From a virus (taxonomy: Duplodnaviria; Heunggongvirae; Uroviricota; Caudoviricetes), in the IMG/VR virus record IMGVR_UViG_2579778529_000004, positions 1-28,161 of that record: 28,161 bases of DNA; one strand, 5' to 3'. This document shows, in pieces, positions 11,140-26,730 of the stretch. Positions within the stretch are counted from its first letter, which is position 1, and every line of letters starts with the position of its first letter. The notes under the pieces were generated by a model that saw only the letters and a program-made list of their open reading frames with translations, was not told where the DNA came from and made no database searches. Position numbers and translations under genes: made by a program.

Positions 11140-11160
11140 GCAATACACAGCGCAATACAC
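11140..11160. repeat. 21-bp terminal repeat GCAATACACAG(C/T)GCAATACAC, candidate integrase arm-type site
   Basis: 20/21 identical to 25552-25572 in direct orientation; itself a tandem duplication of GCAATACAC; 76 bp inside the insert end. Confidence 0.55.
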
Positions 11161-11345
11161 GTATCTGTATTGTTTTAATGCTGATACACACCGTTTTTTG
11201 ATACAGTGATTCGACCTACCATCGCGAAGAATTTTTTATTTCTTGTGTGTAACAATCTGACGAGGTGAGCACTCAAAGAGATAAGAGGCAGTAGAAATTT
11301 CGATCCCCCCTGAATGCAATTTTTCGTATATATATACAAAACAGC

Positions 11346-11499
11346 GCGGGTTATGCGGGTTAGCGGGTTATCTTCGCGTGCTAAGCATTTTTTACTCTTT
11401 AATATCAATAAGTTAAAAAAACAACGTATTTAAATATCAGCCAGAATATAACCCGCAAGACATTCAAAATAACCCGCAAACACCCCTCAAATAACCCGC
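11346..11499. repeat. Iteron cluster (crr-like): 3 tandem GCGGGTTA plus 3 TAACCCGC spaced about 21 bp
   Basis: GCGGGTTA at 11346, 11355, 11363; inverse copies at 11449, 11470, 11492; same 8-mer as the cluster at 19186-19308; flanked by AT-rich DNA. Confidence 0.6.
11416..11437. repeat. 22-bp conserved motif GTAT(T/G)TAAA(T/C)ATCAGCCAGAAT (copy 1)
   Basis: 20/22 identical to 17772-17793; both noncoding. Confidence 0.5.
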
Positions 11500-11580
11500 A
11501 AAAACATCCCTGAAAGTGGGCGCTGGTAATACTGAAAATTTATTCCATTAAATGAGCATTGTCCTCTCTCATCCATTCCG

Positions 11581-24108: not shown

Positions 24109-24336
24109 TCAGGGTTTCCATTCACCCTTTACCCATTCCAGCACCTCAGATAAGCGCCAGACTTTTGTTTGTGGGCCAATACATATTTTTCGTGGAAATT
24201 TTCCTTCCTTTTCAAGTAACGATCTGTGTCTCCTGCCAAGAGCAGTTAACCATGCACATTCATCTTCCTTAATCATCCTGTCGATTGTTTTATCATTTTC
24301 AAGTTCTTCACGCGTAACTATTTGAATCATTACCAT
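24109..24336 (-). CDS. alpA: AlpA-family HTH regulator / excisionase-like (copy 1)
   Basis: ...ECAWLTALGRRHRSLLEKEGKFP...VWRLSEVLEWV matches AlpA; directly downstream of the integrase, overlapping its stop; start could be 24330, 24336 or 24342. Confidence 0.6.
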   Translation of the reverse strand: MVMIQIVTREELENDKTIDRMIKEDECAWLTALGRRHRSLLEKEGKFPRKICIGPQTKVWRLSEVLEWVKGEWKP

Positions 24337-25531
24337 CACCACTAATTAGCTTATTCAGGTAGTCGTACCACCAGTTCATAGCTTCTTTTTTTCTGTCCAT
24401 ATACTGGCTTCTGTTATAAACCCCGGCAACACCGCCTAATGTGTGCCCAAGCAACTGTTCAACCACATTATGTTCAAAACCATGATCACTTAGCTTTGTG
24501 GCAAACACTCTTCGCATATCATGCGCCGTCCATTTCTCCGAGTGTTTCATCCTTTTCCATGTCTTACCGATAGTTACGCTTGCCGTACACTGACGCATAT
24601 CAAACCCAATCACATTTTCTTTGTTACCTGTTATTTTTTTTAACGTAACTAACCAGTTAAACATGCCATCAGGAATCGGTCTGATTATTTCCCTGCCATT
24701 TTTGCTATGATCAGCGGGAACGCGCCATAATTTCTTATCAAAATCCCACTCTCCCCAGGAGGACAGTAATACTTCTGACAGTCGGCAACCAAAAACTACC
24801 AGGAAACGTAAAATAATTCGGTTTTCATATGATAATTCGTGATTGTCATAATCAGTATTAATACTTCGCCATAAATCTCTGATTTCATCATCTGTTAAAA
24901 CCCTGCTTCTTCGCGCAGACTTTTTTCCCACATCACAGACCTCAAGATCATCAATTTCATGACTAATCGCGTATTTTCTTACCCGACAAAATTTAAGCGC
25001 CTGTTTTGATATACGCAATAAAGCTCCGGCCTGTACAGGTGCTACTTTTTTTATTTTGTCAAAGCACTTGATCCACATAGATATTGAGCAATCACTAAGT
25101 GGTACATGACCAATCACCGGATAAATATGTTTACCAAAGCACTGCCTGATATGTTCTGCTCCCCTACGCTTATCCATTGCATAATTATCAAGCCAGTATT
25201 CAAGCGCCTCACGAACGGTAACAGGTTGCAAGGTGGCTTCCCGTTCAATTTTTATCTGAATCCGTGGATCTCTGCCCTCCGCAAGCCAGGTTCGACACTG
25301 ATCGCGCATCTCTCTCGCTGATTTGAGACTCAGATCAGGATATTTTCCAAGTGTCAGCCAGATGGGCGCGGTTCCCCTTCCCGCCAGTCTGTAAAAGAAA
25401 ACAAAACTAACACATCCGTATTTACTGACCCGTACCGAAAGCCCGTTACCATCAGCGATGGTTTCCTGCCTCTCACTCCTGCGCCCAAGCAGGGAACGAA
25501 GTTTTTTATCGCTCAGTTTGTTTAGCGCCAT
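24308..25531 (-). CDS. int: Tyrosine integrase, P4-like
   Basis: About 407 aa from ATG 25531 (MALNKLSDKKLRSLLG...) with an N-terminal arm-binding-type region and C-terminal catalytic domain; located at the insert end next to the att junction. Confidence 0.85.
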   Translation of the reverse strand: MALNKLSDKKLRSLLGRRSERQETIADGNGLSVRVSKYGCVSFVFFYRLAGRGTAPIWLTLGKYPDLSLKSAREMRDQCRTWLAEGRDPRIQIKIEREATLQPVTVREALEYWLDNYAMDKRRGAEHIRQCFGKHIYPVIGHVPLSDCSISMWIKCFDKIKKVAPVQAGALLRISKQALKFCRVRKYAISHEIDDLEVCDVGKKSARRSRVLTDDEIRDLWRSINTDYDNHELSYENRIILRFLVVFGCRLSEVLLSSWGEWDFDKKLWRVPADHSKNGREIIRPIPDGMFNWLVTLKKITGNKENVIGFDMRQCTASVTIGKTWKRMKHSEKWTAHDMRRVFATKLSDHGFEHNVVEQLLGHTLGGVAGVYNRSQYMDRKKEAMNWWYDYLNKLISGDGNDSNSYA

Positions 25532-25536
25532 GTGAT

Positions 25537-26730
25537 TTATAACCCGTTTTTGCAATACACAGTGCAATACACAAATGATGAAAACAGCCAGAACCTTCCA
25601 GAAAAAACAAAAACGACGAACAAGAAAAAATCTTTTTCTTTCATTTGGTTACTAAAAAAATCAGGACAGGCCGCACTGTTGTTACGGCGTGATGTTACGT
25701 TCTTGGTAAAAAAATTCACCCGCGCAGAGACCTGTTCTTTCGCTTTTTTCGCCAGGCGACGCAGATCATCCCAGCGTTTACAGATGCCCAGGCCGGGATT
25801 CGCTTTCTGCCAGACCGTTTCATCAAACGGATCATCTCCCTCATCGAGGGTGTAAATAATCGCAAAGTAGGAGTCGTCTTTTACCGCGCCCTCCACGTCG
25901 CTGTTATAGCCACGCAATACCTTGATGGCGTAATCACGCTGCTCGTAACAAATCCCTTCCTTGTTAAACCCTGCCGTGGTGATACCAAATAAAAGGGACT
26001 GCAGACGGGCACCGGTTGCCGTTTCCAGAACGTCCCACACGTCACGGGTTTTATGTGCATGCAGCTCATCAATAATGGCGCAGTGGATGTTCAGACCATC
26101 CAGGTTGTTTGCATCCGAAGAAAGCGGTTCAAATTTTGATGCGCTCTGCTCCTGGTAAATCGCCAGCTTGTTGAAATCAAACAACCGCCCGAGTGTCGAC
26201 CGGGCTTTTCTGACCATATTTTTGGCGTCTTCAAACACGATTCTGGCCTGGTCACGCGTAGTTGCGGCTGAATACACCTCAGCACCGCCTTCACCATCTG
26301 CCCCCGTCATATACAGACCGATACCCGATGACAGGGTTGATTTTGCGTTTTTACGGGCGACTTCGTTGTACGCCGTCCGGAACCGGCGCACCATCACCGG
26401 ACGTCCGCTGCCATCGCTGCGCATGACAACTTCCCCGGTCTCTTCATTGACCAGCGGAATGACAAAACCAAAAATATTAATGAGGATAAATACATGCCAG
26501 TCCATCAACTCAATAGGCTGGCCTGCCAGCGCCCCTTTTACATGAGGCACAAATTTGTAGAAATTCAGGATGTGCTGCGCACGGGGTTCACTGAAATAAA
26601 TCCCCCGCTCTTCGCCGTACTTCAGATCATCAAGAAAACGCTGGCAGGCCAGACGGACAAATTCGCCAGCGACAATTTCTCCTGCAACAACACGTTCGGC
26701 GTAGCGGATCCCGTCAGCCACTTTTGCCAT
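25537..26730 (-). CDS. terL: Large terminase, N-terminal (ATPase) fragment of the interrupted gene, with a 51-codon insert-derived read-through tail
   Basis: The first ~346 aa align with the insert's terminase N-terminal two-thirds (FVPHVKGA, ARKNAKST, DQARIVFEDA, IIDELH motifs); homology stops at 25698 and the frame reads into insert DNA until a stop at 25537. Confidence 0.8.
   Translation of the reverse strand: MAKVADGIRYAERVVAGEIVAGEFVRLACQRFLDDLKYGEERGIYFSEPRAQHILNFYKFVPHVKGALAGQPIELMDWHVFILINIFGFVIPLVNEETGEVVMRSDGSGRPVMVRRFRTAYNEVARKNAKSTLSSGIGLYMTGADGEGGAEVYSAATTRDQARIVFEDAKNMVRKARSTLGRLFDFNKLAIYQEQSASKFEPLSSDANNLDGLNIHCAIIDELHAHKTRDVWDVLETATGARLQSLLFGITTAGFNKEGICYEQRDYAIKVLRGYNSDVEGAVKDDSYFAIIYTLDEGDDPFDETVWQKANPGLGICKRWDDLRRLAKKAKEQVSARVNFFTKNVTSRRNNSAACPDFFSNQMKEKDFFLFVVFVFSGRFWLFSSFVYCTVYCKNGL
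25552..25572. repeat. 21-bp terminal repeat GCAATACACAGTGCAATACAC, candidate integrase arm-type site
   Basis: 20/21 identical to 11140-11160, same orientation; just upstream of the integrase start. Confidence 0.55.
25702..25716. other. Attachment-site junction (helper terminase N-fragment/insert side)
   Basis: Plus CTTGGTAAAAAAATT; terminase-like translation ends at ...ARVNFFTK here and continues as 51 codons of non-terminase sequence. Confidence 0.5.

What the first reader, a model, noticed from the sequence alone, without database searches (positions are those of the whole stretch)
11140..25572. Matching 21-bp repeats just inside both ends of the insert, candidate integrase arm-type sites
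GCAATACACAG(C/T)GCAATACAC is present at 11140-11160 and 25552-25572 in direct orientation, 76 bp and 131 bp inside the two junctions. Each is an internal tandem of GCAATACAC. The position and orientation fit arm-type binding sites for a P4-like integrase rather than the crossover core.
Basis: partly seen in the sequence, partly recalled or inferred. Interest (0 to 1): 0.5.

Follow-up and report, generated by a model that had tools for sequence, protein, structure and literature searches.

The report
Integrase arm sites of embedded satellite
The two matching 21-bp repeats are real and are most likely the docking sites for the N-terminal domain of the integrase that moves a 14.6-kb phage satellite in and out of its helper prophage's terminase gene, but the motif, its positions and this interpretation were already published in 2023.

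Summary
GCAATACACAG[C/T]GCAATACAC lies at 11140-11160 and 25552-25572, co-oriented, with none expected by chance. The "insert" is a 14,645-bp capsid-forming satellite that splits the terL gene of an E. coli prophage at a 7-bp core, TTGGTAA. The repeats lie 76 and 131 bp inside the junctions. The right-hand repeat sits 20 bp upstream of the start codon of a P4-type tyrosine integrase that has an arm-DNA-binding domain.

The feature is already known. Tommasini, Mageeney & Williams 2023 (PMC10111431) describe this island group (A_Terminase_1_246), the doubled motif tgTGTATTGCantgTGTATTGCa, and its positions 81±2 and 132±2 bp from the attP centre. They propose integrase arm domains, or alternatively AlpA. 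No experiment exists.

My comparisons favour the integrase:
- The same layout, two tandem 12-bp units on each side of the core, is annotated as arm repeats in P4.
- The layout recurs with other half-site sequences in fis-site and cspD/roxA-site satellites.
- Only integrase arm-domain similarity separates these motif classes. AlpA similarity does not.
- Distance to the crossover is fixed, while distance to the int start varies.

Verdict: a real, functional-looking element, correctly interpreted, not novel.

The parts
11140..11160 (+). Distal (int-far) doublet GCAATACACAGCGCAATACAC: two 9-bp half-sites with a 12-bp period. On the int-sense (-) strand it reads GTGTATTGCGCTGTGTATTGC.
   Evidence: Half-site starts lie +78.5 and +90.5 from the core centre.
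25552..25572 (+). Proximal doublet GCAATACACAGTGCAATACAC, separated by 20 bp from the int ATG (25531, - strand).
   Evidence: Half-site starts lie -154.5 and -142.5 from the core centre.
11058..11064 (.). Left copy of the 7-bp crossover core TTGGTAA (int-sense TTACCAA), at the junction between the terL 3' fragment and the island.
   Evidence: Alignment to the intact terL of ON470580. The published identity block for this group is 'ttaccaa'.
25703..25709 (.). Right copy of the 7-bp core TTGGTAA, at the junction between the island and the terL 5' fragment.
24308..25531 (-). Tyrosine integrase, 407 aa, P4-type. Arm-binding domain at residues 6-92, catalytic domain at 211-377. R250, K277, H337, R340, H363 and Y372 are invariant in the alignment.
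24109..24330 (-). AlpA-family winged-HTH protein (73 aa), the candidate excisionase and the rival candidate binder of the repeats.
   Evidence: Pfam Phage_AlpA E 1.9e-9; translation. A homologue follows int in every motif-bearing locus that held enough sequence downstream of int.
23767..24045 (-). Second AlpA-like protein (92 aa). It is absent from many motif-bearing lineages, and a close relative occurs in a fis PICI that has a different doublet.
11096..11108 (+). IHF consensus match TATCAATCGTTTA between the core and the distal doublet; a candidate bend site.
   Evidence: 4 matches in the window against 1.23 expected; positionally fixed matches in a minority of other lineages.
11166..11173 (-). 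Degenerate inverted fifth half-site (TGTATTGT, 7 of 8 matches), specific to this lineage.
25573..25702 (.). Proximal arm spacer with phased AAAAC / A-tract repeats. This could be an intrinsic bend or excisionase sites. No sigma-70-like promoter was found here.
10328..11064 (-). 3' fragment of the helper prophage terL.
25703..26730 (-). 5' fragment of the helper prophage terL, co-oriented with int. Transcription from here would read into int.

Best explanation
The two 21-bp elements are the arm-type binding sites of the satellite's own P4-family tyrosine integrase. In the excised circle they lie on either side of the 7-bp crossover core. The proximal doublet is about 134 bp from the core centre and 20 bp before int, and the distal doublet is about 79 bp from it. 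Together they offer four 9-bp half-sites, in two tandems with a 12-bp period. I infer that the four N-terminal arm domains of an Int tetramer bind these half-sites while the C-terminal domains bind the core sites of attP and of terL. DNA bends would fold the arms back onto the core; candidates are an IHF-like site in the distal arm and phased A-tracts in the proximal arm. After integration one doublet stays at each junction, and the same sites, with AlpA as the probable directionality factor, assemble the excision complex that restores terL. Shown: the sequences, the geometry, the domain content, the conservation, and the co-variation with integrase class. Inferred: binding, stoichiometry, bending, and any effect on int expression.
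For: 1. Int carries Arm-DNA-bind_3 (PF13356, E 1.1e-17) plus a catalytic domain. Its N-domain matches PDB 3JU0 and 3JTZ, and the catalytic residues are invariant.
2. The geometry is fixed to within a few bp in three HE-PICI site groups. Half-site starts are -154.5/-142.5 and +78.5/+90.5 (terL, window), -153/-141 and +82/+94 (capsid E, L137), and -155/-143 and +77/+89 (L036). The doublets are 212-215 bp apart edge to edge. By contrast, the distance to the int ATG varies; 13, 20 and 50 nt are the commonest values.
3. The motif is kept while the flanks diverge. An Int only 66% identical (L020/L143) has GCGTATTGCAATGTGTATTGCA in otherwise unrelated DNA. Of 16 loci from 8 genera found through the protein rather than the motif, 14 have the doublet directly upstream of int, and 2 with a partial int match have one half-site. 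The 2-nt spacer varies freely.
4. The same 2+2, 12-bp-period layout is annotated as 'attP arm sequence repeat' in P4 NC_001609, with half-site ATGCCCCCAA. It recurs with other half-sites in chromosomal PICIs at cspD and roxA (TAACTACACC; 78 and 132 bp) and at fis (TGTTTATACA; 74 and 136 bp).
5. Only the arm domain separates the motif classes. Arm-domain identity is at least 0.60 within HE-PICIs and at most 0.52-0.58 to other classes. AlpA identity overlaps (within HE min 0.40, outgroup max 0.60), and so does the rest of Int.
6. Within HE-PICIs the arm domain is the most conserved part: 0.70 mean identity, against 0.54 and 0.56 for the other two Int domains and 0.57 for AlpA.
7. For P4, integrase self-regulation by direct DNA binding near the int start is reported in the literature, as summarised in PMC2951348.
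Against: There are no binding or mutational data for any HE-PICI. An AlpA gene follows int in every motif-bearing locus that could be checked, so co-occurrence cannot separate the two proteins. The separation test rests on only four classes, and the gap to the fis class is narrow (0.58 against 0.60). Most viral-contig loci were retrieved through the motif itself, so their conservation is partly built in. Direct repeats with a 12-bp period are also typical of excisionase sites. Strict IHF consensus sites appear in only a minority of lineages.
Confidence: 0.8

Rival explanations
1. The doublets are binding sites for the satellite's AlpA protein, acting as excisionase or transcription factor, and not for Int. 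This is the alternative named in the 2023 paper.
For: An AlpA gene follows int in every motif-bearing locus that held enough downstream sequence. Excisionase sites are typically direct repeats about one helical turn apart (abstract of PMC7498355). The proximal doublet lies just upstream of int. From my own knowledge, not checked here, AlpA of CP4-57 raises integrase expression. PMC10111431 lists AlpA as a possible binder.
Against: The AlpA region corresponding to the recognition helix and wing varies widely (for example GRRHRSLLE, SNSTRWRME, PKSTRAFME) while the 8-bp half-site core never changes. AlpA similarity does not separate the motif classes (outgroup max 0.60 against within-HE min 0.40). 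The sites lie on both arms at the outer edges of attP, whereas in my understanding characterised excisionase sites lie on one arm between the arm sites and the core. Spacing is fixed relative to the crossover and not relative to the int start. The second AlpA-like ORF is absent in many lineages, and a relative of it occurs in a fis PICI with a different doublet.
Confidence: 0.1
2. The proximal copy is mainly a transcriptional operator or roadblock that controls int expression, through autoregulation or a host regulator, and the distal copy is incidental.
For: The proximal doublet lies 20 bp from the int ATG. Arm sites overlapping int promoters give autorepression in KplE1, and the same is reported for P4 (PMC2951348).
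Against: No sigma-70-like promoter was found between the core and int. The distal copy is equally conserved and precisely positioned. Distance to the ATG varies between lineages. This reading is better seen as a possible secondary effect of Int binding than as an alternative.
Confidence: 0.06
3. The repeats serve replication or packaging, as iterons or terminase recognition sites, or they are a chance or hitch-hiking duplication.
For: The distal doublet lies in the non-coding tail of the island, near a cluster of other repeats.
Against: Chance expectation is 0. The island's real iterons have a different sequence (TAACCCGC) and lie at 11346-11499 and 19186-19308. The doublet is shared by HE-PICIs with different late modules: lambda-like capsid, decoration and small-terminase genes in L137, against HK97-like head and TerS/TerL genes here. 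Its position tracks the crossover site.
Confidence: 0.02

Closest known systems
Doubled motif tgTGTATTGCantgTGTATTGCa of helper-embedded PICIs (Tommasini, Mageeney & Williams 2023, NAR Genom Bioinform 5:lqad036, PMC10111431)
   Same: The sequence is identical, with two co-oriented copies per attP at 81±2 and 132±2 bp from the centre; here they are at 79 and 134 bp. The island belongs to the same group, A_Terminase_1_246, with identity block ttaccaa and a length of 14,645 bp. The paper proposes the same function, binding by Int arm domains of a tetramer.
   Different: Nothing differs in the element itself. The paper calls the motif unique to HE-PICIs. I find that the sequence is clade-specific but the layout is not: fis, cspD and roxA PICIs and P4 each have their own doublets.
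Satellite phage P4 attP arm repeats (annotated in NC_001609)
   Same: Tandem 12-bp units form a doublet on each side of the core. The proximal doublet is 16 bp upstream of int, compared with 20 bp here. The integrase has an Arm-DNA-bind_3 domain. Extra single copies occur in inverted orientation.
   Different: The half-site is ATGCCCCCAA rather than GCAATACAC. The doublets are closer to the core (122.5 and 63.5 bp) and to each other (186 bp against 213 bp). The P4 core is 20 bp and lies in a tRNA gene. Arm-domain identity to this Int family is at most 36%.
Phage lambda Int arm-type sites P1, P2, P'1-P'3
   Same: A heterobivalent integrase recognises arm sites unrelated to the core, within an attP of about 240-270 bp, with bends between arms and core. 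This is established knowledge, summarised in PMC2951348.
   Different: Lambda has five sites in a 2+3 arrangement, with different subsets used for integration and excision, and its int is transcribed towards attP. Here there are four half-sites (2+2) and int is transcribed away from the core. The lambda N-domain belongs to a different Pfam family.
KplE1 (CPS-53) IntS P' arm sites overlapping the intS promoter
   Same: The int gene abuts its att arm, and the arm sites lie just upstream of int. Int and the excisionase repress int (PMC2951348).
   Different: KplE1 has a dedicated intS promoter within attL. Here no promoter-like site was found, and int probably depends on read-through from the helper's late operon (model in PMC10111431).

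Membership tests
Arm-type sites of a heterobivalent tyrosine integrase | The cognate integrase has a separate N-terminal arm-DNA-binding domain in addition to core-binding and catalytic domains. | tested here: met
   PF13356 at residues 6-92, E 1.1e-17; PF00589 at residues 211-377. PDB 3JU0 and 3JTZ N-domains, E 2e-5 to 1e-4. R250, K277, H337, R340, H363 and Y372 are invariant.
Arm-type sites of a heterobivalent tyrosine integrase | Repeated sequence unrelated to the crossover core, on both sides of it, within about 150 bp in attP. | tested here: met
   The core is TTGGTAA and the doublets are GCAATACAC x2, at -155..-134 and +79..+99.
Arm-type sites of a heterobivalent tyrosine integrase | Sites conserved and fixed in position among relatives, and changing together with the integrase arm domain. 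| tested here: met
   (conservation and spacing). (four integrase classes with four half-sites; only arm-domain identity separates the classes).
Arm-type sites of a heterobivalent tyrosine integrase | Direct binding by the Int N-domain, and a requirement for recombination. | not testable with these tools
   This needs EMSA or footprinting and recombination assays. None is reported in the searchable literature.
HE-PICI doubled motif / A_Terminase_1_246 island group (PMC10111431) | Motif tgTGTATTGCantgTGTATTGCa, in two co-oriented copies 81±2 and 132±2 bp from the attP centre. | tested here: met
   Exact motif. Distances of 79 and 134 bp from the centre of TTGGTAA.
HE-PICI doubled motif / A_Terminase_1_246 island group (PMC10111431) | Satellite with int, alpA and primase, inserted in and co-oriented with a prophage late gene. 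For this group: identity block ttaccaa in terL and a length of about 14.6 kb. | tested here: met
   RefSeq annotation of a 97%-identical copy. Pfam results. Island of 14,645 bp, equal to the span of Eco1645.15.A_Terminase_1_246. terL restored by in-silico excision.
P4 attP arm repeats | Tandem 12-bp units as doublets on both sides of the core, with the proximal doublet just upstream of int. | tested here: met
   NC_001609 features 3942-3965 and 4151-4174, core 4078-4097, compared with the window.
P4 attP arm repeats | P4 half-site sequence (TTGGGGGCAT on the int-sense strand). | tested here: not met
   The half-site here is GTGTATTGC. The element works like the P4 sites but is a different specificity class.
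Excisionase (Xis/TorI/AlpA-type) binding sites | Phased direct repeats confined to one arm between the arm-type sites and the core, changing together with the excisionase. | tested here: not met
   The doublets lie on both arms at the outer edges of attP. AlpA similarity does not separate the motif classes.

The most novel reading that the evidence does not exclude
The arm domain and its 12-bp doublet may form a diversifying specificity pair. E. coli satellites share one fixed 2+2 attP scaffold, with doublets 210-215 bp apart, but carry at least three half-site versions (HE-PICI, fis, cspD/roxA), and P4 has a fourth on a tighter scaffold. This could insulate co-resident satellites and helper prophages from each other's integrases. 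In helper-embedded islands the proximal doublet lies in DNA that late read-through transcription must cross 20 bp before int, so it could also limit int expression. The published statement that the doubled motif is unique to HE-PICIs would then hold for the sequence only, not for the layout.
Probability: 0.3. Interest if true: 0.4.

Novelty: already known. Interest (0 to 1): 0.22.

Why it matters
The repeats mark the functional ends of a satellite that disables its helper's terminase gene until it excises. Knowing which protein reads them is needed to understand how excision is timed. They also give a clean diagnostic for this integrase clade. Because the motif, its geometry and the arm-site hypothesis are already in print, the remaining value is modest. 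The comparative evidence here tips the published "Int or AlpA" question towards Int. It also shows that the layout is general among P4-family satellites, which makes swap experiments between the arm domain and the half-site straightforward to design.

Tried and rejected
- Chance: rejected, with 0 of 100 shuffles matching.
- A promoter overlapping the proximal doublet: the scan found no sigma-70-like site in 25400-25900. The single + strand hit near the left junction is below shuffle expectation.
- tRNA target: none in the window.
- Close E. coli relatives for co-variation: only 36 complete genomes carry this int plus arm, all at least 95% identical, so they are uninformative.
- Viral-contig scan with the motif: it gave 118+ stretches, but these were selected through the motif itself, and a few are unrelated tandem arrays, for example in giant-virus MAGs.
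- Genome-contig scan: it returned only 16 loci and used arm-domain peptides, so it shows co-occurrence but gives no negative controls. Negative controls came instead from L154, L155, L157 and P4.
- L041 junctions: they could not be fixed, because only chance 6-mers were found.
- Strict IHF consensus: present at fixed positions in only a minority of arms, so IHF involvement stays tentative.
- ACGAACA repeats as a shared second motif: not consistent across lineages. Phased AAAAC repeats fit better.
- Not done: structure prediction and large protein-database searches. Pfam and PDB sequence matches already settled the domain question, and the available predictor does not model DNA.
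Full report
**1. Observation**

The pattern GCAATACACAGYGCAATACAC occurs exactly twice in the window, at 11140-11160 and 25552-25572. Both copies are on the + strand and differ only at the Y position. No further match appears with up to two mismatches, and none in 100 dinucleotide-preserving shuffles. Each copy is two exact GCAATACAC units 12 bp apart, and these are the only four exact copies of the 9-mer in 28 kb.

**2. Context**

- The window is an E. coli prophage with its head and tail genes on the - strand.
- Its large-terminase gene is split. Phage vB_EcoM-606R7 (ON470580) carries the uninterrupted gene, and its sequence matches the window up to 11071 and again from 25703.
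- The two junctions share the 7-bp core TTGGTAA, at 11058-11064 and 25703-25709.
- The intervening 14,645 bp encode, all on the - strand and co-oriented with terL: a tyrosine integrase, two AlpA-family proteins, a Bro-N protein, an Icd-like protein, DUF4222, a DUF927 primase, SSB, ProQ, major capsid protein, prohead protease, portal, head-tail connector, HNH, TerS and TerL. There are no tail genes.
- Removing the island in silico restores a 585-aa TerL that is 99.8% identical to the phage protein. The core falls at about codon 342.
- The repeats are therefore 76 and 131 bp inside the junctions, as stated.
- The right-hand repeat is separated by 20 bp from the integrase ATG at 25531.

**3. Prior publication**

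A full-text search for the 9-mer found Tommasini, Mageeney & Williams 2023 (PMC10111431).

- The paper defines helper-embedded PICIs (HE-PICIs), which are satellites integrated in prophage late genes.
- It reports a doubled motif, tgTGTATTGCantgTGTATTGCa, present as two co-oriented copies in every HE-PICI attP. One copy lies 81±2 bp upstream and the other 132±2 bp downstream of the attP centre.
- Its supplement lists the group A_Terminase_1_246 in E. coli, with identity block "ttaccaa". One member, Eco1645.15, spans exactly 14,645 bp, and the listed attL and attR sequences match this window.
- Measured from the centre of TTGGTAA, the window's doublets are at 79 and 134 bp, within the published tolerance.
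- No later paper in the library tests the motif.

The finding is therefore an independent rediscovery of a published feature and of its published interpretation.

**4. Is it an integrase arm site? Domain content**

Int (407 aa) has Arm-DNA-bind_3 (PF13356) at residues 6-92 and a Phage_integrase catalytic domain. Its N-terminus aligns to the solved N-domains of P4/CP4-like integrases, 3JU0 and 3JTZ. The catalytic R-K-H-R-H-Y residues are invariant among relatives.

**5. Conservation and geometry**

- An integrase only 66% identical (L020/L143, Xenorhabdus) has GCGTATTGCAATGTGTATTGCA directly upstream of its start, in otherwise unrelated DNA.
- I ran a scan of one genome per species using peptides from the integrase, not the DNA motif. 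It returned 16 loci from Xenorhabdus, Arsenophonus, Rahnella, Kosakonia, Cedecea, Kluyvera, Erwinia and Enterobacter. Fourteen have the doublet just upstream of int, and the two with only a partial int match keep one half-site.
- In viral contigs the 2-nt spacer between half-sites varies freely (TT, GT, CT, GC, TA, CA and others) while the half-sites do not. These loci were retrieved through the motif, so their conservation is partly built in.
- In three different target-site groups the half-site positions relative to the crossover centre agree closely:

| Locus (target) | Proximal half-site starts | Distal half-site starts |
|---|---|---|
| Window (terL) | -154.5 / -142.5 | +78.5 / +90.5 |
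| L137 (capsid gene E) | -153 / -141 | +82 / +94 |
| L036 (another site) | -155 / -143 | +77 / +89 |

- The two doublets are 212-215 bp apart edge to edge in all three.
- By contrast, the distance from the doublet to the int start codon varies between lineages; 13, 20 and 50 nt are the commonest values.
- The constraint is therefore on the recombination site, not on the gene start.
- Extra half-sites are lineage-specific: an inverted degenerate copy at 11166-11173 here, and a fifth copy at -185 in L036.

**6. The layout is general and the sequence tracks the integrase class**

- The P4 reference record (NC_001609) annotates 12-bp "attP arm sequence repeat" units as tandem doublets at 3942-3965, 16 bp upstream of int, and at 4151-4174. 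They flank the core at 4078-4097, and the half-site is ATGCCCCCAA.
- A chromosomal PICI between clpS and cspD (L154) has the doublets TTAACTACACCATT[A/G]ACTACACC, 78 and 132 bp from its identity block.
- A PICI beside roxA in O157 (L155) has the same half-site at both ends.
- A fis-site PICI (L157) has [A/G]TGTTTATACA[A/G]ATGTTTATACAG at 74 and 136 bp.

There are thus four integrase classes with four half-site sequences, one 2+2 layout with a 12-bp period, and 210-215 bp between doublets in all the PICI classes. The 2023 paper states that the doubled motif is not found in other PICIs. That holds for the sequence but not for the layout.

**7. Int or AlpA?**

- Among 16 motif-bearing lineages for which both proteins could be read, mean pairwise identity is 0.70 for the Int arm domain, 0.54 and 0.56 for the core-binding and catalytic domains, and 0.57 for AlpA. 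The stretch of AlpA expected to contact DNA is highly variable, even though the DNA half-site never changes.
- Arm-domain identity is at least 0.60 within HE-PICIs. To the other classes it is at most 0.52 (cspD and roxA), 0.58 (fis) and 0.36 (P4), so the classes separate cleanly.
- AlpA identity to the cspD/roxA class reaches 0.60, while within HE-PICIs it falls to 0.40. The classes therefore overlap for AlpA. The rest of Int also overlaps.
- The second AlpA-like ORF is missing in many lineages, and a close relative of it occurs in the fis PICI.
- Sites on both arms at the outer edges of attP, in a number matching a tetramer, fit arm sites better than excisionase sites. Excisionase sites are normally confined to one arm; this last point is my own knowledge.

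I put Int arm sites at about 0.8 and AlpA at about 0.1.

**8. Mechanism**

Steps shown by the data are the sequences, the geometry, the domain content and the co-variation. The rest is inferred.

- Four arm domains of an Int tetramer bind the four half-sites and bridge them to the core sites.
- Bending could come from an IHF-consensus site at 11096-11108 in the distal arm. Positionally fixed matches occur in a minority of other lineages.
- Bending could also come from phased AAAAC / A-tract repeats next to the proximal doublet.
- No sigma-70-like promoter lies between the core and int. This fits the published idea that helper late transcription reads through the terL 5' fragment into int.
- Int bound 20 bp before the ATG might then limit that read-through. 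Autoregulation of this kind is shown for KplE1 and reported for P4. This is speculative here.

**9. Verdict**

Interest is low to moderate. The only increments are the evidence favouring Int over AlpA and the finding that the layout is general among P4-family satellites.

Noticed in passing
window 11346-11371, 11449-11499 and 19186-19308: TAACCCGC iterons occur 14 times in the window against 0.75 expected. Twelve fall in two clusters of six. One cluster lies beside the distal att arm and the other just downstream of the DUF927 primase gene. This resembles the P4 ori plus crr arrangement, where crr also lies beside attP in NC_001609.
   Followed up: partly
window 11096-11108: An IHF consensus match, TATCAATCGTTTA, lies between the core and the distal doublet. 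A second match lies at 11403-11415. In other lineages, strict matches sit at fixed offsets from the doublets: 43-44 nt in distal arms and 66 nt in proximal arms.
   Followed up: partly
window 25573-25640, and the equivalent region in about 20 other lineages: AAAAC / AAC repeats with a period of about 10 bp lie on the core side of the proximal doublet. They could form an intrinsic bend or be excisionase (AlpA) sites.
   Followed up: partly
L154 3355-3377 and 14399-14421; L155 about 74-96 and 15302-15324; L157 3009-3032 and 18900-18923: Chromosomal PICIs at cspD, roxA and fis have their own 12-bp-period doublets (TAACTACACC and TGTTTATACA) at nearly the same distances from the crossover as in HE-PICIs. 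The published claim of uniqueness therefore applies to the sequence only.
   Followed up: yes
L001 2759-2765 and 17740-17746, compared with window 11058-11064 and 25703-25709: A 97%-identical copy of the island sits in a terL allele whose core is TTCGTGA rather than TTGGTAA, and both junctions carry that variant. This is consistent with a 7-bp overlap that tolerates, or is converted by, 2 mismatches. The paper lists the same TCACGAA variant.
   Followed up: partly
window 10300-26800 compared with NZ_AP027404.1 3468224-3486044: The best genome match (strain EC416, 100% identity) spans 17,821 bp against 16,501 bp in two pieces. An IS1414-family transposase is annotated under the match, so that strain appears to carry an IS insertion that the window lacks.
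   Followed up: no
window 11111-11202: An imperfect 37-nt inverted repeat (70% complementary) brackets the distal doublet. It partly reflects the inverted degenerate half-site at 11166-11173.
   Followed up: no
L157 16366-16650 compared with window 23767-24045: The window's second AlpA-like ORF has a close relative in the fis PICI. In that island it is separated from int by an unrelated 272-aa ORF, and no AlpA gene follows int directly.
   Followed up: no
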